A DNA stretch of 64,000 nt from Proteobacteria bacterium SG_bin9. GTDB lineage: Bacteria; Pseudomonadota; Alphaproteobacteria; Rhizobiales; Xanthobacteraceae. Below the pieces are notes generated by a model. It was not told the DNA's origin and searched no databases. It saw nothing but the letters and a program-made list of their open reading frames with translations. Numbering within the stretch: the first letter of the stretch is position 1; every line of letters begins with the position of its first letter. Location of the stretch: NCBI GenBank assembly GCA_002083525.1, contig LWDM01000050.1, positions 26,032-90,031 on the forward strand. The letters run 5' to 3'. The position numbers were made by a program, and so were the translations under genes. Shown here in pieces: positions 43,921 to 49,388 of the stretch.

Positions 43921-44450
43921 CCCGCAAGCCGAAAGTGCTGGACGATCCGTTTGCGGATGTCTCGGCAGCGAAGCGCAAGGCAGGGACGCAACCGGGTCAA
44001 GCGAAGGGGCAATGCCTTTGCGGCACCGTCCGCTTCGAGATCGATGTTCCCGCGCGCTGGGCCTGGCACGACCATACGCGCGCCAGCCGTATCGCCCACG
44101 GCGCCGTTTACGCCACCTATGTCGGCAGCTGGCGCAAGCGTTTTCGCGTTACGGAAGGCGAGGATAGCATCACGCGCTACGATGATGCGGCGACGAAAAC
44201 GTCGCGCAGCTTCTGCAGCCGGTGCGGTACGCCGCTGTTTTATGAGCGCGGGCGCTCGAAGCACATGATCAATATTCCGCGCGCGCTGTTCAAGAACCGC
44301 ACCGGGCGCGAGCCGCTCTATCACATCGGCATCGATGAACTGCAAGCGTGGGCGTACATGGGAACGCCGCTGGGGCCCTTGAAAGGATATCCCGGCGTCG
44401 TCTGGGAGCGGCCGAGGAAGAAAAAGGCCTTCGATTTTCCGGGGGCCTGA
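43917..44450 (+). CDS. GFA (glutathione-dependent formaldehyde-activating / CENP-V) family protein
   Basis: 'CLCGTVRFEI' and 'FCSRCGTPLF' zinc-binding cysteines. Start at ATG 43917, overlapping the upstream stop (ATGA). Confidence 0.8.
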   Translation: MTRKPKVLDDPFADVSAAKRKAGTQPGQAKGQCLCGTVRFEIDVPARWAWHDHTRASRIAHGAVYATYVGSWRKRFRVTEGEDSITRYDDAATKTSRSFCSRCGTPLFYERGRSKHMINIPRALFKNRTGREPLYHIGIDELQAWAYMGTPLGPLKGYPGVVWERPRKKKAFDFPGA

Positions 44451-44465
44451 TTTGCTCGGCTGCCT

Positions 44466-45044
44466 CTATGCCTGCATGCGCAACGCGCCGCTCGACGGGG
44501 GCAGGATGTAATCGGAAAGTCCGGCCGGGATGCGAAAGCACGTCCGCGGAACCTGCGGATGCAGCGAGAAGAATTCGGTATCGCTTCCCTCCACCGGCTC
44601 GAAGCCGGAGCGGTCGAGCACATAGACAAAGCCGGACGACCACAGCATCGGATCGCGCCGCCAGAGCATGTGTCCCGGTTCACCGTCAGCCCGGAAATCG
44701 TAGCTCGGCCCGTTTCGGCGATACGTATAGGTTATGGAGCCGAAGCGATCGCGCAACCAGCCGACGTTCAGCAGGGCATGAAGGATGACCTCGACCCAGT
44801 CGACGCTCCCGTACACGGCGCATAGTGAACCGGATGCCTTGTGAAAGTCGGTCGCCTGTCGGGGGTCGAGACAATTCAATGGCGCTGGGTGGTTGCCGCC
44901 GTGAAGGACAAATCCCCCTGTGCCGGTCAAAAGGGCGAGCAACGCGACAATCCGGTCAAGCGGCTCCGCCGTCAGATCGGAATGCCGGTCACCGCTGATG
45001 CGTTTCAGCAGATGCTGCAGGTCGATCGCATCGCTCTCCGGCAT
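44466..45044 (-). CDS. Unknown 192-aa soluble protein, last gene of the rSAM/HExxH operon
   Basis: ATG shares one base with the HExxH gene stop (TAATG). No TM segment and no motif I can assign. It shares the lower-GC3 codon usage of the operon. Confidence 0.7.
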   Translation of the reverse strand: MPESDAIDLQHLLKRISGDRHSDLTAEPLDRIVALLALLTGTGGFVLHGGNHPAPLNCLDPRQATDFHKASGSLCAVYGSVDWVEVILHALLNVGWLRDRFGSITYTYRRNGPSYDFRADGEPGHMLWRRDPMLWSSGFVYVLDRSGFEPVEGSDTEFFSLHPQVPRTCFRIPAGLSDYILPPSSGALRMQA

Positions 45045-46210
45045 TAAGCAAACTCAGTGATCCGCTCGTCCAGAGGCTGGAACAGTCCGCGGCCGAACTC
45101 GGTCAGGGCGGGATTGTCGCGTAGCGGTCTTGCCAGCGTCTCGATGTCCTCGCGCAGGAACTGTTCGTTCGCGTCGACGTAACCGCGATCGTCATAGCCG
45201 GTCTGTTTGATCCGGTTGAAGAAGAGCAGCGTATTTGCGAGCGCGTGGTAGGCCATCAATACGCGATTGATCGGCCGGGCTTTGCGGATGGGCGGCGACC
45301 AGTAGAGTTCGGTATCGGTTCCGTCGTCGATCGGGCCGAGGCGCTCGAGCATATAGTAATACTGATGCGAACATTCGTGCACCAGCAGCTCGGCGATCAC
45401 CACCGGAGCATGCGGATAGGAAGAATGAACATACCCAGGCACTTCCTCCCAGCTTCCGGACACGGTCTTGAACGCAGGCTGGAGTGCGCCGACGACGATC
45501 CCGTTCAAGGCGCGATCGACCCAGGCGCGATACTCTGGGGCAGCCGCGTGCAGCGCTTCAAACCCGCCGCGGAAAGTTGCGATCGCATCGTCATCGATCG
45601 ATCCCACCGTGTGGCATTCGCGGAAAAAATCGGAGCCGCCGCCGACGGGCAGCGCGTAGTTTGGGACCAGGTGCGCGCGGCCGAAAGGGGCAACCGTGTG
45701 CATACGAGGCACAGCGGCTGCCATCCAGGCGCCGCCGATGCGTTCGAAGGCATACGCCGTTCCGGAGGCGTCGACGAGCTTGAGCGTTGCGCCATCCGAA
45801 CCGGATTGTGTGGCTTCGGCGCGAACGACGTCCCGCATCGCGCGGCCGTCGAATATCAGCGGCGCCGGTTTGAAAGAGGCTGACCAGTTTCCGTCGTGGC
45901 CGGTTTCAGTCAGCGCGACTGCCACCCGCACTGCGATTTCCGCCGGATCGACCCTGCCGTCCTTGAGCGCCAGGCCTGCCAGTCCGAACGCCATGGACCA
46001 TCCTGCGCGCGCGCGTTGCGGCGAAGGCGGCTTGCCGAGCCAGCCGCTCAGGAACGCCTGCAGTCCGTCGCCGGCCTCGATGCGCTTGCCATGCACCTCG
46101 AGGAACAGTCCGAGCGTGCCTGTCGCGCTGGTGCAGATCACGGTGTCGAAAAGCGATTCATCGACGGGGCCGCACGGAAGGCTGAACGGTGTGATCAGAT
46201 CGTTGCGCAT
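45044..46210 (-). CDS. HExxH-motif protein (resembles the TIGR04267-type / alpha-KG-HExxH peptide beta-hydroxylase family)
   Basis: 'VIAELLVHECSHQYYYMLERLGP' and a later 'AYHALAN'. The ATG at 46210 is preceded by GAGGAG, which is formed by the last two codons of the rSAM gene; there is a 4-nt gap after the rSAM stop. The track start 46225 is a TTG. Confidence 0.8.
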   Translation of the reverse strand: MRNDLITPFSLPCGPVDESLFDTVICTSATGTLGLFLEVHGKRIEAGDGLQAFLSGWLGKPPSPQRARAGWSMAFGLAGLALKDGRVDPAEIAVRVAVALTETGHDGNWSASFKPAPLIFDGRAMRDVVRAEATQSGSDGATLKLVDASGTAYAFERIGGAWMAAAVPRMHTVAPFGRAHLVPNYALPVGGGSDFFRECHTVGSIDDDAIATFRGGFEALHAAAPEYRAWVDRALNGIVVGALQPAFKTVSGSWEEVPGYVHSSYPHAPVVIAELLVHECSHQYYYMLERLGPIDDGTDTELYWSPPIRKARPINRVLMAYHALANTLLFFNRIKQTGYDDRGYVDANEQFLREDIETLARPLRDNPALTEFGRGLFQPLDERITEFA

Positions 46211-46214
46211 CGTC

Positions 46215-47393
46215 TTACTCCTCAAGCTTGCAGAGCAATTTCTCAGGAAGGTCGCGCCGGATCACGGTCCTCATCCGGTCGGCCAGCGCGAACAAAGCGT
46301 CGCAATAAAGCGAGGGGTTCGAGAAACCCTGTCCGTCGAACCGGTGCGGCAGATAGCCCCCTCCGCACGCCGAAAGGTTCGGGCAGGATGCGCAGGTGCT
46401 GCACAGCGTCTGCAGGTTCATGACCTCGTAGTCGGACGCATGCAGCGACAGCTCGTGCTCGAAGATGTTGAGCCGGTCATGCGAGCAGTCGCCGCCGCAA
46501 AGCCGGGTCACGTCGCTTAGTCCGATGGACCCATCCGACTCGATCACGCAGAGCATTTGCAAATCGCCGCCGAGCGAATCCAGATAGACATCGCCCCCCA
46601 GAAGGCCGGTCATCATCGTCTCTAACATGCGGATGCGAGGGGCCGCTTCCCCAAGCCCGTACCAGCGTTCGAAAGCTTCTAGCAAAAAGCGGCGATAGGG
46701 CTCAGGCCCCTGCCACTCGTCCGGCAGGTTCGCGCGGTTGCCGTTCGGCAGCAGCAGGTCGAACTCGGAGAAGCCTTGCTTCACGAACCAATCGACGATC
46801 TCCGCGCCGTTGGCGATCGGATCGATCACGCACAGGCAACCGCCGAACACGGATCTGAATTCCGGGACGTCGCGCCGCAAGCCGCTGATCACCGCAAGCA
46901 ATTGTTCGGTCGATCCGCTGCCGTCCTGCCGCATCACTCTGCGGCGATCCGCGATCTCGGGCGGACCGTCAATGCTCAATCCGAAGCAAACCTCGAATTC
47001 GTCGAACAGTTCGACCCAGGCACGATCGAGCAGAAGTCCGTTGGTCTGCAGCACGAAGTGAATCGTTACATTTTCGGTGGCGCGCAGAATTTCGAGAATG
47101 CGCCGCATATGCCGGTGCCCGACAAGCAGCGGCTCACCGCCATGAAGCTCGATGGTGAAACTGTCGAATCCGAACTTTCGACAATGCTCGGTGATACGTT
47201 CGGACAAACGCCGGATGACTCGCTCGGAGATCACTGGCGGCCGGTTAGCCCACGAACTGTCGCCGCGATTGTAGACATAGCAGTATGTGCAATCGAGATT
47301 GCAGCGCTGCGCCACCTTGACGATGGCCTGACGCAGCACGCCGTCCTTGAAGCGGCGGGATTTCTGTTCCCGCCCGACCTCATTTGAGGGCAT
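46215..47393 (-). CDS. Radical SAM/SPASM domain peptide maturase (FxsB-like)
   Basis: 'VAQRCNLDCTYCYVY' (CxxxCxxC), 'ELHGGEPLL', and a C-terminal Cys-rich SPASM region 'LCSTCASCPNLSACGGGYLPHR...YCDALF'. SD AAGGAGAG lies 5 nt upstream of the ATG. Confidence 0.88.
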   Translation of the reverse strand: MPSNEVGREQKSRRFKDGVLRQAIVKVAQRCNLDCTYCYVYNRGDSSWANRPPVISERVIRRLSERITEHCRKFGFDSFTIELHGGEPLLVGHRHMRRILEILRATENVTIHFVLQTNGLLLDRAWVELFDEFEVCFGLSIDGPPEIADRRRVMRQDGSGSTEQLLAVISGLRRDVPEFRSVFGGCLCVIDPIANGAEIVDWFVKQGFSEFDLLLPNGNRANLPDEWQGPEPYRRFLLEAFERWYGLGEAAPRIRMLETMMTGLLGGDVYLDSLGGDLQMLCVIESDGSIGLSDVTRLCGGDCSHDRLNIFEHELSLHASDYEVMNLQTLCSTCASCPNLSACGGGYLPHRFDGQGFSNPSLYCDALFALADRMRTVIRRDLPEKLLCKLEE

Positions 47394-47404
47394 GACTCTC
47401 CTTT

Positions 47405-47424
47405 GTCCGCGTGAGAGCGCGGAC
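47405..47424 (-). other. Stem-loop immediately 5' of the rSAM ribosome-binding site
   Basis: 'gtccgcg tgagag cgcggac' forms a 7-bp GC-rich stem. On the mRNA it sits between the precursor ORF and the rSAM SD, and is preceded by a U-run ('ggcuuuuugg'). Confidence 0.6.
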
Positions 47425-47451
47425 CCAAAAAGCCGAGTTGAGCCGGTGGCA

Positions 47452-47497
47452 TCGGACTGTTCGCGTCGGACTATTCGGACTGTTCGCGTCGGACTAT
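47452..47497. repeat. Perfect 23-nt tandem direct repeat (2 copies plus a partial third)
   Basis: 'tcggactgttcgcgtcggactat' at 47452..47474 is repeated exactly at 47475..47497 and followed by 'ttgtgtcggac'. Each unit contains the sub-repeat 'tcggact'. Confidence 0.9.
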
Positions 47498-47510
47498 TTG
47501 TGTCGGACGA

Positions 47511-47720
47511 TCAGCCTTCCCGCTTTGTCACTGCCTGGACTTGATCGAGCAATGCCGTGCGGCTGTAGTTCGAATGATTACTGCTGTGCGAGTTGTGCGC
47601 GGACTCGAGGTTCCCGAGATTGACCTTCGCGCGAGCAGCCACTTGTCTCAGCACCTGATTTTGAATGTGCACGAGATCTTCAAGATCGAGTTTGGACAGA
47701 TCGAGATCCTTATCAGCCAT
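47511..47720 (-). CDS. Candidate RiPP precursor peptide (69 aa)
   Basis: GGAGG lies 6-10 nt upstream of the ATG. Sequence: 'MADKDLDLSKLDLEDLVHIQNQVLRQVAARAKVNLGNLESAHNSHSSNHSNYSRTALLDQVQAVTKREG'. It has an acidic, helical leader-like N-terminus resembling FxsA-type leaders, then a His/Ser/Asn/Tyr-rich core. It is the first gene of the operon. Confidence 0.75.
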   Translation of the reverse strand: MADKDLDLSKLDLEDLVHIQNQVLRQVAARAKVNLGNLESAHNSHSSNHSNYSRTALLDQVQAVTKREG

Positions 47721-47903: not shown

Positions 47904-47927
47904 GCCGGCCCGAACACTCGGGCCGGC
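47904..47927. terminator. Rho-independent terminator after the aldehyde dehydrogenase gene
   Basis: 'gccggcccg aacac tcgggccggc', flanked by 'aaaat' and 'tgctttt'. On the minus strand the hairpin is followed by 'atttt', just downstream of the ALDH stop at 47958. Confidence 0.8.
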
Positions 47928-47957: not shown

Positions 47958-49388
47958 TTAAGCCGCGTTGAAGCCGGCGATCGCCTTCACTTCGAGGAAG
48001 TCCTCGAGGCCGAACTTGCCCCACTCGCGGCCGTTGCCCGACTGCTTGTAGCCGCCGAACGGCGCGGTGCGCTCGTTCGGAACGCCCTGCAGGTTGACGT
48101 TGCCGGCACGGATCTGACGGCCGACCTTGCGTGCACGTTCGACGTTGCCGGCCGAGACGTAACCGGCAAGGCCGTACGGCGTGTCGTTGGCGAGCTCAAC
48201 GGCTTCCGCTTCGTCCTTGAAGCCCATGATCGCGAGCACGGGTCCGAAGATTTCTTCGCGCGCAATCGTCATGTCCTTCGTCACGTCGGCGAAGATGGTC
48301 GGACGCACGTAGAAGCCCTTGTTGACGCCCTCCGGCAGACCCGGACCACCGGCGACAAGCGTTGCGCCTTCGTCGATGCCCTTCTGGATCAGCGCCTGGA
48401 TCTTGTCCCACTGGGTGCGGTTGACGACCGGACCGATGGTGGTGCCGTCGCCGCGCGGATCGCCGGCCTTGGTCTTGTCGGCGACCGCCTTTGCGATGGC
48501 CGCGACTTCCTTCATCTTCGCCTGCGGCACGATCATGCGCGACGGCGCGTTGCACGACTGGCCAGAGTTGTTGAACATGTGCATCACGCCGCCGGTGACG
48601 GCCTTGCCGAAATCGGCGTCTTCGAGGATCACGTTCGGCGACTTGCCGCCGAGCTCCTGGCTGACGCGCTTCACAGTGTTAGCCGCCCGCTTCGCCACGT
48701 CGATACCGGCGCGGGTCGAGCCGGTGAACGAGATCATGTCGATGCCCGGGTGCTCGCTCATCACGGCGCCGACATCGAGGCCGAGGCCGTTGATCAGGTT
48801 GAACACGCCCTTCGGCACGCCGGCTTCATGCAGGATTTCCGCGAAGATCAATGCCGAGGTCGGGGTGAATTCCGACGGCTTCAGAATCATGGTGCAGCCA
48901 GCGGCGAGCGCAGGCGCGACCTTGCAGGCGATCTGGTTGAGCGGCCAGTTCCATGGCGTGATCATGCCGACGACGCCAACCGGCTCGCGCACGACCACCG
49001 CTGACCCAATCGTCTCTTCGAAGTGGTAGCTCTTCAGCACATCGAGCGTCGAGGCGAGGTGGCCGAGGCCAGCGCCGGCTTGAAGCTTTTCCGCCATCGG
49101 CAGCGGTGCGCCCATTTCGTCGGACACGGCGGCGCCGATGTCCTTCATGCGCGACTTGTAGACCTCGATGATCTTGGCCAGCAGCGCCATGCGCTCTTCG
49201 CGCGTGGTGACGGAGAACGTTTCGAATGCGCGGCGCGCGGCGGCGACCGCCTTGTCCACGTCGGCCTTCGAGCCGACCGCGACGTCATACATCGCTTCCT
49301 CGGTTGCCGGATTAACGACCGGGACCGACTTCTTGACGGCCGGATCGACCCAGGCGCCGTCGATGTAGAATTGCATGCGATTGACCAT
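47958..49388 (-). CDS. NAD(P)-dependent aldehyde dehydrogenase
   Basis: Start at ATG 49388 with GAGGAA upstream; 476 aa. 'ELGGKSP' and catalytic 'NSGQSCNAPSR', with 'EEIFGPV'. Confidence 0.92.
   Translation of the reverse strand: MVNRMQFYIDGAWVDPAVKKSVPVVNPATEEAMYDVAVGSKADVDKAVAAARRAFETFSVTTREERMALLAKIIEVYKSRMKDIGAAVSDEMGAPLPMAEKLQAGAGLGHLASTLDVLKSYHFEETIGSAVVVREPVGVVGMITPWNWPLNQIACKVAPALAAGCTMILKPSEFTPTSALIFAEILHEAGVPKGVFNLINGLGLDVGAVMSEHPGIDMISFTGSTRAGIDVAKRAANTVKRVSQELGGKSPNVILEDADFGKAVTGGVMHMFNNSGQSCNAPSRMIVPQAKMKEVAAIAKAVADKTKAGDPRGDGTTIGPVVNRTQWDKIQALIQKGIDEGATLVAGGPGLPEGVNKGFYVRPTIFADVTKDMTIAREEIFGPVLAIMGFKDEAEAVELANDTPYGLAGYVSAGNVERARKVGRQIRAGNVNLQGVPNERTAPFGGYKQSGNGREWGKFGLEDFLEVKAIAGFNAA

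What the first reader, a model, noticed from the sequence alone, without database searches (positions are those of the whole stretch)
44466..47720. Compact radical SAM/SPASM + HExxH + short-peptide operon: candidate atypical cyclophane (triceptide-like) RiPP system in an alpha-proteobacterium
What the sequence shows: four co-directional minus-strand genes with almost no intergenic space. The order is a 69-aa ORF with a strong GGAGG, a 117-nt structured spacer, a 392-aa enzyme (CNLDCTYC radical SAM motif plus a C-terminal Cys-rich SPASM-like region), a 388-aa protein with HECSH, and a 192-aa unknown. The SD of the HExxH protein is formed by the last two codons of the rSAM gene, and the 192-aa ORF's ATG overlaps the previous stop as TAATG. 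Established knowledge: rSAM/SPASM and HExxH partners define the FxSxx-COOH (FxsA/FxsB/FxsC, TIGR04268/04269/04267) type of system. As I recall, FxsB-like enzymes are three-residue cyclophane-forming maturases and the HExxH partners are alpha-ketoglutarate-dependent peptide beta-hydroxylases, and the family is described mainly from actinobacteria. Inference: this locus is a divergent member. Its precursor does not end in FxSxx, it has a follower sequence, and the operon carries an extra uncharacterised gene. It therefore may make an undescribed product class.
Basis: partly seen in the sequence, partly recalled or inferred. Interest (0 to 1): 0.88.

Follow-up and report, generated by a model that had tools for sequence, protein, structure and literature searches.

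The report
Triceptide peptide operon with unknown fourth enzyme
This is a real four-gene operon for a ribosomal peptide natural product of the known "triceptide" (cyclophane) class, unusual mainly because its fourth gene belongs to an uncharacterised enzyme family that may add a nucleotide-derived group to the peptide.

Summary
The four co-directional minus-strand genes are there as described. A (69 aa) is a genuine precursor. Its core AHNSHSSNHSNYSRTALLD shows only synonymous changes between related loci, and the same leader plus [Y/H]-[D/N]-x-H-x-S-x-H-[S/T]-x core lies directly upstream of the rSAM in 25 of about 30 related genome loci. B is a three-residue cyclophane-forming rSAM/SPASM enzyme: its best families are YhhB and FxsB (both below cut-off) and its best solved structure is ChlB. 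C passes the aKG-HExxH peptide beta-hydroxylase model. The locus is therefore a Yhh/Chl-like triceptide cluster, not an Fxs system proper, in an experimentally uncharacterised clade. D (192 aa) has no Pfam or NCBIfam match. It belongs to a family of about 230 representative clusters with near-invariant His48 and Glu157. Members of that family are repeatedly adjacent or fused to HD phosphohydrolases. A confident model (pLDDT 92) matches no solved fold significantly; the only sensible weak hits are rifampin ADP-ribosyltransferases. An ADP-ribosyltransferase acting on a His-cyclophane triceptide (MicD) was reported in 2026, so D may be an analogous enzyme, but this is unproven. The "structured spacer" is not supported. 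Verdict: new variant of a known kind, moderate interest.

The parts
47511..47720 (-). Gene A: 69-aa precursor peptide. Leader is about residues 1-40, core about 41-58, variable follower 59-65, conserved C-terminal KREG.
   Evidence: ORF with GGAGG Shine-Dalgarno. The same leader/core family lies upstream of related rSAMs in 25 loci. Codon changes against L001/L003: core 0 nonsynonymous and 4-7 synonymous; tail 5 nonsynonymous and 0-1 synonymous. No NCBIfam or Pfam precursor model matches.
47559..47597 (-). Predicted core motifs HNS-HSS-N-HSN-YSR (residues 42-54): four aromatic-X-X units, the candidate cyclophane sites.
   Evidence: Read directly from the sequence. The sister cassette L095 has HDS-HSS-N-HSN-HSR, so position 11 switches between His and Tyr, both aromatic, while S-R is kept. 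Family consensus is [Y/H]-[D/N]-x-H-x-S-x-H-[S/T]-x. Crosslinking itself is inferred from characterised triceptide synthases (PMC11499958, PMC11002830).
47394..47510 (-). A-B intergenic spacer, 117 nt. Contains a perfect 23-nt tandem duplication (47452-47498), a 7-bp GC hairpin (47405-47424) and the Shine-Dalgarno of B, AAGGAGAG (47396-47403).
   Evidence: Tandem Repeats Finder: 2.0 copies, 100% match. The duplication is absent from L001/L003. Folding z-score is -0.24. No Rfam family matches.
46215..47393 (-). Gene B: radical SAM/SPASM three-residue cyclophane-forming enzyme (triceptide synthase), 392 aa.
   Evidence: NCBIfam scores: YhhB 289.7, FxsB 270.9, XyeB 165.9, anaerobic sulfatase maturase 117.6 bits. 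Best solved structure is the ChlB radical SAM domain 9gm3, E 1.2e-55. The CxxxCxxC motif and C-terminal Cys are invariant in 20 homologues.
45044..46210 (-). Gene C: aKG-HExxH-type peptide beta-hydroxylase, 388 aa. The catalytic domain is about residues 214-377 with HECSH; the N-terminal half is unassigned.
   Evidence: TIGR04267 scores 90.8 bits against a cut-off of 40. Best solved structure is ChlH 8s5f, E 0.0017, aligned across the HExxH motif. Homologues follow the rSAM in 21 related loci.
44466..45044 (-). Gene D: 192-aa protein of an uncharacterised family. His48-Gly49, Tyr78 and Glu157 are conserved. Candidate nucleotide-using (ADP-ribosyltransferase-like) tailoring enzyme.
   Evidence: No Pfam, NCBIfam or PHROG match. 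A word-based search found only 5 + 10 clusters. A profile search found 231 representatives. AF2 model pLDDT 92.4. Foldseek gives no significant hit; Arr structures are the best sensible ones. Family members are adjacent or fused to HD domains.
47904..47927 (-). Terminator-like hairpin after the upstream aldehyde dehydrogenase gene. It marks A-D as a separate transcription unit.
   Evidence: 10-bp stem with 9 GC pairs followed by ATTTTC.

Best explanation
The operon makes a multiply crosslinked ribosomal peptide of the triceptide class.

- Step 1, inferred from homology: the leader of A ((I/V)DLSK..L..I.N.VLR) recruits the rSAM/SPASM enzyme B. B forms aromatic-C to C-beta crosslinks within the three-residue units of the core, up to four of them (HNS, HSS, HSN, YSR).
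- Step 2, inferred from the family assignment: the aKG/Fe(II) HExxH enzyme C hydroxylates a beta-carbon in or next to a ring. The Asp that YhhC hydroxylates (ChlH acts on Asp and His) has its counterpart in this precursor family at core position 2, which is Asn in this window. C might also cut off the follower oxidatively, as PflC and PosC do.
- Step 3, hypothesis: D then decorates the cyclised core with a nucleotide-derived group. D belongs to an unannotated family with a conserved His...Tyr...Glu pattern and a weak Arr-like fold. The most likely reaction is ADP-ribosylation of a ring histidine, by analogy with MicD in minviopeptin. In sister clusters an HD phosphohydrolase next to or fused with D would trim that group.

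No protease or exporter is encoded in the operon.
For: Steps 1 and 2:
- Family scores.
- Matches to solved ChlB and ChlH structures.
- The precursor family co-occurs with the rSAM.
- Purifying selection acts on the core only.
- Published activities of YhhB/YhhC, HtkB and ChlBH (PMC11002830, PMC12186529, PMC11499958, PMC12636437).

D belongs to the pathway:
- It is translationally coupled to C by TAATG.
- It occurs in A-B-C-D, A-B-C-HD-D or A-B-C-(D-HD fusion) cassettes in at least four lineages and different genomic contexts.

D as a nucleotide-using, ART-like enzyme:
- His48, Gly49 and Glu157 are near-invariant in 83 diverse members. Tyr78 is invariant in the 15- and 20-member alignments of closer relatives.
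- Two independent AF2 models both return Arr structures as the only hits with sensible geometry: prob 0.28-0.44, TM 0.40, rmsd about 5.3 A over about 136 columns.
- Profile-profile alignment puts H48-G on the H-G-T of Arr and Y78 on the catalytic Tyr of Arr. The His-to-Tyr spacing is 30 residues in both.
- Fusions to HD, HD_4 and GrpB domains, and a RelA/SpoT neighbour.
- Precedent: MicD ADP-ribosylates the His of a His-Ala-Ser cyclophane, and its His and Glu are essential (PMC12912966).
Against: - Nothing here is biochemical.
- B is below the curated cut-offs of both YhhB and FxsB, so ring positions and ring number are guesses.
- Core position 2, the family's usual Asp, is Asn here, so the target of C is uncertain.
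- For D, no ART family is detected by sequence.
- hhalign probabilities against Arr are 1-3%.
- All Foldseek E-values are above 0.3 and TM is below 0.5.
- The only PDB sequence hit (2kxi, E 0.047) is marginal.
- More distant members of the D family sit in contexts without any RiPP genes.
- I could not obtain the MicD sequence, and MicC is a different fold from C.
Confidence: 0.7

Rival explanations
1. Same triceptide pathway, but D is not a nucleotide transferase. Instead it is the missing processing enzyme, a peptidase or amidase that removes the leader or follower.
For: The operon encodes no protease. D has a conserved His/Glu pair that could act in hydrolysis. The follower of A is variable, except for KREG, as expected for a removed segment.
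Against: No peptidase family or fold is detected. There is no conserved Ser/Cys nucleophile and no set of metal ligands: only H48, G49, P61, G138, F148 and E157 are near-invariant. The repeated fusion or adjacency to HD phosphohydrolases, GrpB and RelA/SpoT points to nucleotide chemistry, not proteolysis.
Confidence: 0.12
2. Same triceptide pathway, but D is a non-catalytic accessory such as an immunity or self-protection factor, a chaperone or a peptide-binding scaffold. This would resemble HtkC, which binds its precursor but has no detectable activity.
For: HtkC in a related cluster co-purifies with the precursor but changes nothing (PMC11499958). Many sister clusters work without D.
Against: Strict conservation of a few polar residues (His48, Glu157) across about 230 divergent representatives is typical of a catalytic site. 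Domain fusions are to enzymes. D is translationally coupled to C.
Confidence: 0.13
3. The rSAM is not a peptide maturase but an anaerobic-sulfatase-maturase-like or other protein-modifying enzyme, and ORF A is a chance ORF.
For: The anaerobic sulfatase maturase model is also hit at 117.6 bits, and the solved structures 4k37 and 4k36 at E about 1e-20.
Against: Cyclophane maturase models score 150-170 bits higher, and ChlB matches at E 1e-55. No sulfatase is nearby. ORF A is conserved with a purifying-selection signature and recurs upstream of homologues across phyla.
Confidence: 0.02

Closest known systems
YhhA/YhhB/YhhC triceptide system (Sugiyama et al. 2022, as cited in PMC11002830, PMC11499958 and PMC12186529)
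   Same: Both have a discrete rSAM/SPASM cyclophane synthase acting on Tyr- and His-containing three-residue motifs, a separate hydroxylase that makes beta-hydroxy-Asp, and a small precursor directly upstream. YhhB is the top NCBIfam model for B.
   Different: B scores 289.7 bits against the equivalog cut-off of 445, as do all members of its clade. The core here is HNS-HSS-N-HSN-YSR, with Ser or Asn at X3 in three of the four motifs, whereas the published YhhB crosslinks are Tyr-to-Arg and His-to-Arg. A fourth gene, D, is present.
ChlB/ChlH (ChlBH) from Chlorogloeopsis, a fused rSAM plus aKG-HExxH protein (PDB 9gm3, 8s5f; cited in PMC12636437)
   Same: These are the closest solved structures for both B (E 1.2e-55) and C (E 0.0017, aligned through HExxH). 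The chemistry is cyclophane formation followed by beta-hydroxylation of Asp or His on the cyclised peptide. The native motif YDR resembles the [Y/H]-D-x start of this precursor family.
   Different: Here the two enzymes are separate genes, C has an extra unassigned N-terminal half of about 210 aa, and there is an extra gene D.
FxsA/FxsB/FxsC (TIGR04268, TIGR04269, TIGR04267)
   Same: The architecture is the same: rSAM/SPASM plus an HExxH partner. C passes TIGR04267.
   Different: B is below the FxsB cut-off (270.9 against 370). A has no TIGR04268 match and ends in KREG, not FxSxx. The Streptomyces relatives returned at the bottom of the genome scan are only about 30-35% identical to B; they were not scanned against the FxsB model.
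HtkA/HtkB/HtkC from Pandoraea (SSN cluster C09; PMC11499958)
   Same: HtkB forms a His-C2 to C-beta crosslink. Neighbouring precursor families carry 2-3 His-x-x motifs. The products of the whole cluster are stated to be undescribed. The Pandoraea enzymes are 35-40% identical to B.
   Different: HtkA has a single HTK motif. HtkC has no detected function. No D-type gene is reported.
mic cluster and minviopeptin (MicA/B/C/D; PMC12912966)
   Same: It is a four-gene A-B-C-D triceptide operon. A small (about 23 kDa) accessory enzyme with an essential His and Glu ADP-ribosylates the ring His of an H-x-S cyclophane, but only after cyclisation. An aKG enzyme then removes the follower.
   Different: MicC is a double-stranded beta-helix aKG enzyme, not an HExxH type. 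MicD was annotatable as an ART, whereas D matches no ART model. Homology between D and MicD could not be tested.
Rifampin ADP-ribosyltransferase Arr (PDB 2hw2, 9iba, 9iaf)
   Same: Arr gives the best, and reproducible, structural resemblance to the D model. H-G-[S/T] and Y-x-[S/T] motifs align collinearly with a 30-residue spacing, followed by a G-[F/Y]-[V/I]-Y-[V/I]-[L/V] strand.
   Different: The match is not statistically significant (Foldseek E 0.4-1.3, TM 0.26-0.40; hhalign prob 1-3%). D has an extra N-terminal helical segment and a beta-hairpin insert. The conserved acid in D is a Glu on the next strand.

Membership tests
Triceptide (three-residue cyclophane) RiPP cluster | Radical SAM enzyme with CxxxCxxC and a SPASM-type C-terminal Cys cluster, most similar to characterised 3-CyFEs | tested here: met
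   CNLDCTYC is present, and Cys282/299/334/337/343/364 are conserved. YhhB, FxsB and XyeB are the top models. ChlB 9gm3 matches at E 1.2e-55.
Triceptide (three-residue cyclophane) RiPP cluster | Small precursor gene next to the rSAM whose core has aromatic-X-X motifs | tested here: met
   A has HNS, HSS, HSN and YSR. The precursor family is conserved upstream of homologues. Purifying selection acts on the core.
Triceptide (three-residue cyclophane) RiPP cluster | Aromatic-C to C-beta crosslink actually formed (-2 Da per ring) | not testable with these tools
   Needs co-expression and MS/NMR.
YhhB equivalog (NF041707) | Score at or above the curated cut-off of 445 bits | tested here: not met
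   289.7 bits. Ten clade members score 242-305 bits.
FxsB family (TIGR04269) / Fxs system | Score at or above the curated cut-off of 370 bits | tested here: not met
   270.9 bits.
FxsB family (TIGR04269) / Fxs system | FxsA precursor (TIGR04268) ending in FxSxx-COOH | tested here: not met
   No NCBIfam hit for A at E <= 0.1. The C-terminus is ...TKREG.
aKG-HExxH peptide beta-hydroxylase (TIGR04267) | Score at or above the cut-off of 40 bits, with an HExxH motif | tested here: met
   90.8 bits over residues 214-377. HECSH aligns with HEHRH of ChlH 8s5f.
aKG-HExxH peptide beta-hydroxylase (TIGR04267) | aKG/Fe-dependent hydroxylation of the cyclised peptide | not testable with these tools
   Needs an enzyme assay.
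ADP-ribosyltransferase superfamily (for D) | Significant sequence-profile match to a known ART family | tested here: not met
   No Pfam or NCBIfam hit for D or for 83 relatives. hhalign against Arr gives prob 1.4-3.2%. The only PDB sequence hit is 2kxi at E 0.047.
ADP-ribosyltransferase superfamily (for D) | ART fold (split beta-sheet) by structure comparison | tested here: inconclusive
   Model pLDDT 92.4. Arr structures are the only sensible hits in two searches but are not significant: E 0.4-1.3, prob up to 0.44, TM up to 0.40.
ADP-ribosyltransferase superfamily (for D) | Conserved H-Y-E type catalytic pattern on successive strands | tested here: met
   H48-G49 at the end of strand 45-50, Y78 in strand 75-80 and E157 in strand 157-160. 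H, G and E are near-invariant in 83 members; Y is invariant in the closer sets.
ADP-ribosyltransferase superfamily (for D) | NAD+ binding and ADP-ribose transfer | not testable with these tools
   Needs biochemistry.
mic-type (minviopeptin) cluster | MicC-type double-stranded beta-helix aKG enzyme and a MicD homologue | not tested
   C is HExxH-type, not DSBH.

The most novel reading that the evidence does not exclude
D and its roughly 230 representative relatives would be a previously unrecognised, highly divergent ADP-ribosyltransferase-like family. In these clusters D would ADP-ribosylate a ring histidine of a tetra-cyclophane peptide. In sister clusters the adjacent or fused HD phosphohydrolase would convert the adduct to a phosphoribosyl or ribosyl group. 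That would be a second, independent origin of peptide ADP-ribosylation in RiPPs and a new two-enzyme tailoring module.
Probability: 0.3. Interest if true: 0.75.

Novelty: new variant of a known kind. Interest (0 to 1): 0.55.

Why it matters
Triceptides are a young, fast-growing RiPP class, and products are known for only a handful of clusters. This clade has more than 1,300 rSAM homologues at E <= 1e-20, spread across at least four phyla. Its conserved [Y/H]-D-x-H-x-S-x-H-S-x core has no characterised member that I could find. The D gene gives a concrete handle on an unannotated enzyme family whose only functional clues are its operon partners. If it is a nucleotide transferase, it would extend the single 2026 precedent for ADP-ribosylated RiPPs and provide a small enzyme for site-specific peptide labelling. 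If D proves inert, the locus is simply one more triceptide cluster.

Tried and rejected
- **Fxs membership:** rejected on the curated cut-offs and on the absence of an FxsA-type precursor.
- **Anaerobic sulfatase maturase reading:** rejected.
- **Structured or regulatory RNA in the A-B spacer:** rejected. Folding z = -0.24, there is no Rfam hit, the extra length is a lineage-specific duplication, and the hairpin shows no compensatory change.
- **Phage or defence origin of A, C, D:** no PHROG hits.
- **Sequence link from D to solved structures:** only marginal hits.
- **Assumption that the small (140-160 aa) D relatives were Arr proteins:** they have no NCBIfam or Pfam match.
- **hhalign of the D family against Arr-3 and against a three-sequence Arr alignment:** not significant.
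- **Viral fold library:** one significant hit, to an uncharacterised Megaviridae protein, which is uninformative.
- **Metagenome scans for D-family loci:** The wider context of the family therefore rests on seven look-ups of D-family members.
- **Obtaining MicD/MicC or the Sugiyama 2022 paper:** not held.
- **Full-text search for the core-motif strings:** no paper found.

Full report
**1. Observation**

The region holds four co-directional minus-strand ORFs:
- A, 47720..47511, 69 aa.
- B, 47393..46215, 392 aa.
- C, 46210..45044, 388 aa from the ATG. An in-frame TTG 15 nt upstream is also possible.
- D, 45044..44466, 192 aa.

- GGAGG lies 5 nt before the ATG of A.
- The last two codons of B (GAG GAG) form the Shine-Dalgarno of C.
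- The stop of C and the start of D overlap as TAATG.
- B has CNLDCTYC and C has HECSH.

A strong hairpin followed by a T-run (47927-47904) comes after the upstream aldehyde dehydrogenase gene, so A-D is its own transcription unit.

The one element that does not hold is the "structured" 117-nt spacer:
- Its folding energy equals that of shuffled sequence (z = -0.24).
- Rfam finds nothing.
- About 35 nt of it is a window-specific perfect 23-nt tandem duplication (47452-47498).
- The 7-bp hairpin before the Shine-Dalgarno of B loses a pair in relatives without compensation.

The window matches a metagenome-assembled genome named "Proteobacteria bacterium SG_bin9". There the genes are annotated only as "radical SAM protein" and "hypothetical protein".

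**2. The precursor is real**

The cassette recurs in syntenic relatives (L001-L004, L086). Between the window and these loci:
- Codons 41-58 of A (AHNSHSSNHSNYSRTALLD) carry 4-7 synonymous and 0 nonsynonymous differences.
- Codons 59-69 carry 5 nonsynonymous and 0-1 synonymous differences.

I scanned 80 genome loci for relatives of B. In 25 loci, including almost all whose enzyme is 45% or more identical to B, a small ORF lies directly upstream. It has a shared leader ((I/V)DLSK..L..I.N.VLR..A) and a core of the form [Y/H]-[D/N]-x-H-x-S-x-H-[S/T]-x. Most of the remaining loci in that identity range carry variants such as YGRHSNVHSS.

A more distant A-B-C-D cassette sits in another genomic context (L095/L096). 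Its rSAM is 70% identical to B and its core is AHDSHSSNHSNHSR. The Asn at position 2 of the window core therefore sits where Asp is usual. The Tyr at position 11 alternates with His while Ser-Arg is kept, which is what one expects of the aromatic first residue of a cyclophane unit.

No curated precursor model matches A.

**3. The two recognisable enzymes**

B:
- NCBIfam scores are 289.7 bits for YhhB, 270.9 for FxsB and 165.9 for XyeB, all of them cyclophane-forming maturases. Anaerobic sulfatase maturase scores only 117.6.
- The best solved structure is the radical SAM domain of the triceptide synthase ChlB (9gm3, E 1.2e-55).
- B is below the curated cut-offs of YhhB (445) and FxsB (370). So are ten relatives from Burkholderiales, Neisseriales, Mycobacterium, Streptomyces, Sorangium, Tateyamaria, Pantoea and Pandoraea.
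- The clade is therefore a sister of the characterised families, with more than 1,300 homologues at E <= 1e-20.

C:
- It passes the aKG-HExxH peptide beta-hydroxylase model (90.8 bits against a cut-off of 40).
- Its best solved relative is ChlH (8s5f).

What the literature establishes:
- YhhB makes Tyr-C3-to-Arg-C-beta and His-C2-to-Arg-C-beta links (PMC11002830).
- YhhC makes erythro-beta-hydroxy-Asp (PMC12186529).
- HtkB from Pandoraea makes a His-C2-to-Lys-C-beta link, and the products of its SSN cluster are stated to be undescribed (PMC11499958).
- HExxH enzymes can also cleave the backbone oxidatively (PMC12636437).

The locus is thus a Yhh/Chl-like triceptide cluster. It is not an Fxs system: the FxsB cut-off is missed, and the FxsA-type precursor with its FxSxx end is absent.

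**4. Gene D**

Sequence and family:
- D has no Pfam, NCBIfam or PHROG match.
- Word-based searches of 5.8 billion clusters found only 5 close relatives, plus 10 relatives of a sister clade.
- A full HMM search found 231 representative clusters at E <= 0.001, and 29 at E <= 1e-30.
- His48, Gly49, Pro61, Gly138, Phe148 and Glu157 are near-invariant in 83 diverse members.
- Tyr78 is invariant among the closer members.

Genomic context:
- D lies in A-B-C-D in the window clade and in L095/L096.
- It lies in A-B-C-HD-D in Oxalobacteraceae-type loci L005-L008 and in L085. L009 has A, B, C and D, but an HD gene was not confirmed there.
- It occurs as a D-HD fusion after B and C in L087.
- Elsewhere in the family there are further fusions to HD, HD_4, GrpB, a TehB-type methyltransferase and a transglutaminase-like domain, and one member has a RelA/SpoT neighbour.
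- Two more distant members sit in non-RiPP contexts.
- Many sister clusters replace D (with or without HD) by a second HExxH protein.

Structure:
- With a deep alignment, AlphaFold gives a confident model (pLDDT 92.4, pTM 0.88).
- Foldseek finds no significant PDB match.
- In both searches the only hits with sensible geometry are the three rifampin ADP-ribosyltransferase (Arr) structures. The best is 9iba: prob 0.44, TM 0.40, rmsd 5.5 A over 136 columns.
- I checked that my recalled Arr-3 sequence is exact.
- Profile-profile alignment is not significant (prob 1-3%). It does place H48-G on the H-G-T of Arr, Y78 on the catalytic Tyr of Arr (30-residue spacing in both), and the GFVYVLD strand on GYIYIVE.

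**5. Interpretation of D**

A 2026 paper shows that in the mic triceptide cluster a small ADP-ribosyltransferase, MicD, modifies the ring His of an H-A-S cyclophane. It acts only after cyclisation, and one His and one Glu are essential (PMC12912966). Only four such clusters were found there.

D is not annotatable as an ART, and I could not compare it with MicD. Even so, four things make an ADP-ribosyl (or other nucleotide-derived) transfer the best single hypothesis for D:
- the conserved His/Tyr/Glu pattern;
- the weak Arr-like fold;
- the nucleotide-enzyme partners;
- the MicD precedent.

I put this at roughly 0.3-0.4. The rivals are a processing peptidase and a non-catalytic partner like HtkC. 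Neither is excluded. The fusion partners argue against the peptidase reading, and the conserved catalytic-looking residues argue against the scaffold reading.

**6. Verdict**

- The RiPP/cyclophane interpretation is right in kind but wrong in family: it is Yhh/Chl-like, not Fxs.
- The cluster type (rSAM + aKG-HExxH + His/Tyr-rich precursor) is already known. This clade and its product are uncharacterised.
- The interesting part is D, with HD in sister clusters.
- Novelty: new variant of a known kind. Interest: 0.55.

Noticed in passing
window 47452-47498 (minus-strand A-B spacer): A perfect 23-nt tandem duplication (TCGGACTGTTCGCGTCGGACTAT, two copies) accounts for most of the extra spacer length compared with relatives L001 and L003, which lack it.
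   Followed up: yes
window 44466-45044: In the public record of this MAG (OQW56566.1), gene D is annotated as a truncated 116-aa hypothetical protein. The full 192-aa ORF is conserved in all relatives, so the deposited start is probably mis-called.
   Followed up: partly
L005 (MAG 'Candidatus Paceibacteria') and L006 (MAG 'Bradyrhizobium sp.'), both from metagenome 3300054697: Both carry an A-B-C-HD-D cassette. Its D protein is 74-76% identical to that of Oxalobacteraceae bacterium IMCC9480, a level similar to the 78% seen for Actimicrobium, and its precursor is near-identical. These contigs are probably mis-binned Burkholderiales DNA.
   Followed up: no
P0142 (L087 3684-4931), P0184, P0276, P0279, P0231, P0197, P0196; L088 833-1882: D-family domains occur fused to HD or HD_4 phosphohydrolase, GrpB, TehB-type methyltransferase and transglutaminase-like domains. 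One member lies next to a RelA/SpoT-family gene. Pfam DUF6886 gives weak sub-threshold hits on some members and may be a distant relative.
   Followed up: partly
L010, L013, L015, L017, L018, L019, L021, L025, L029 (gene after C or after B): Many sister clusters carry a second, different HExxH protein of about 360-400 aa (HE[A/S]IH) instead of D. L019, L021, L025 and L029 seem to have only this type.
   Followed up: partly
L019 10388-11470; also L024, L031: In Xanthobacteraceae and other alphaproteobacterial variants, whose precursor core is H/Y-x-x-H-S-N-V-H-S-S-N, a second radical SAM protein (Pfam Radical_SAM, 64 bits) follows the HExxH gene.
   Followed up: no
L091 (Rhodopseudomonas faecalis), compared with window 47958-49388: The aldehyde dehydrogenase in the same 90%-identity cluster as the window's, in a cultured relative, has different neighbours and no A-D cassette. 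The cassette is therefore accessory and patchily distributed.
   Followed up: partly
window 44290-47400, both strands: Many long ORFs overlap B, C and D in other frames or on the plus strand (for example 45245-45883 +, 45696-46520 +, 46776-47387 +). They look like the usual by-product of high G+C content, not genes.
   Followed up: no
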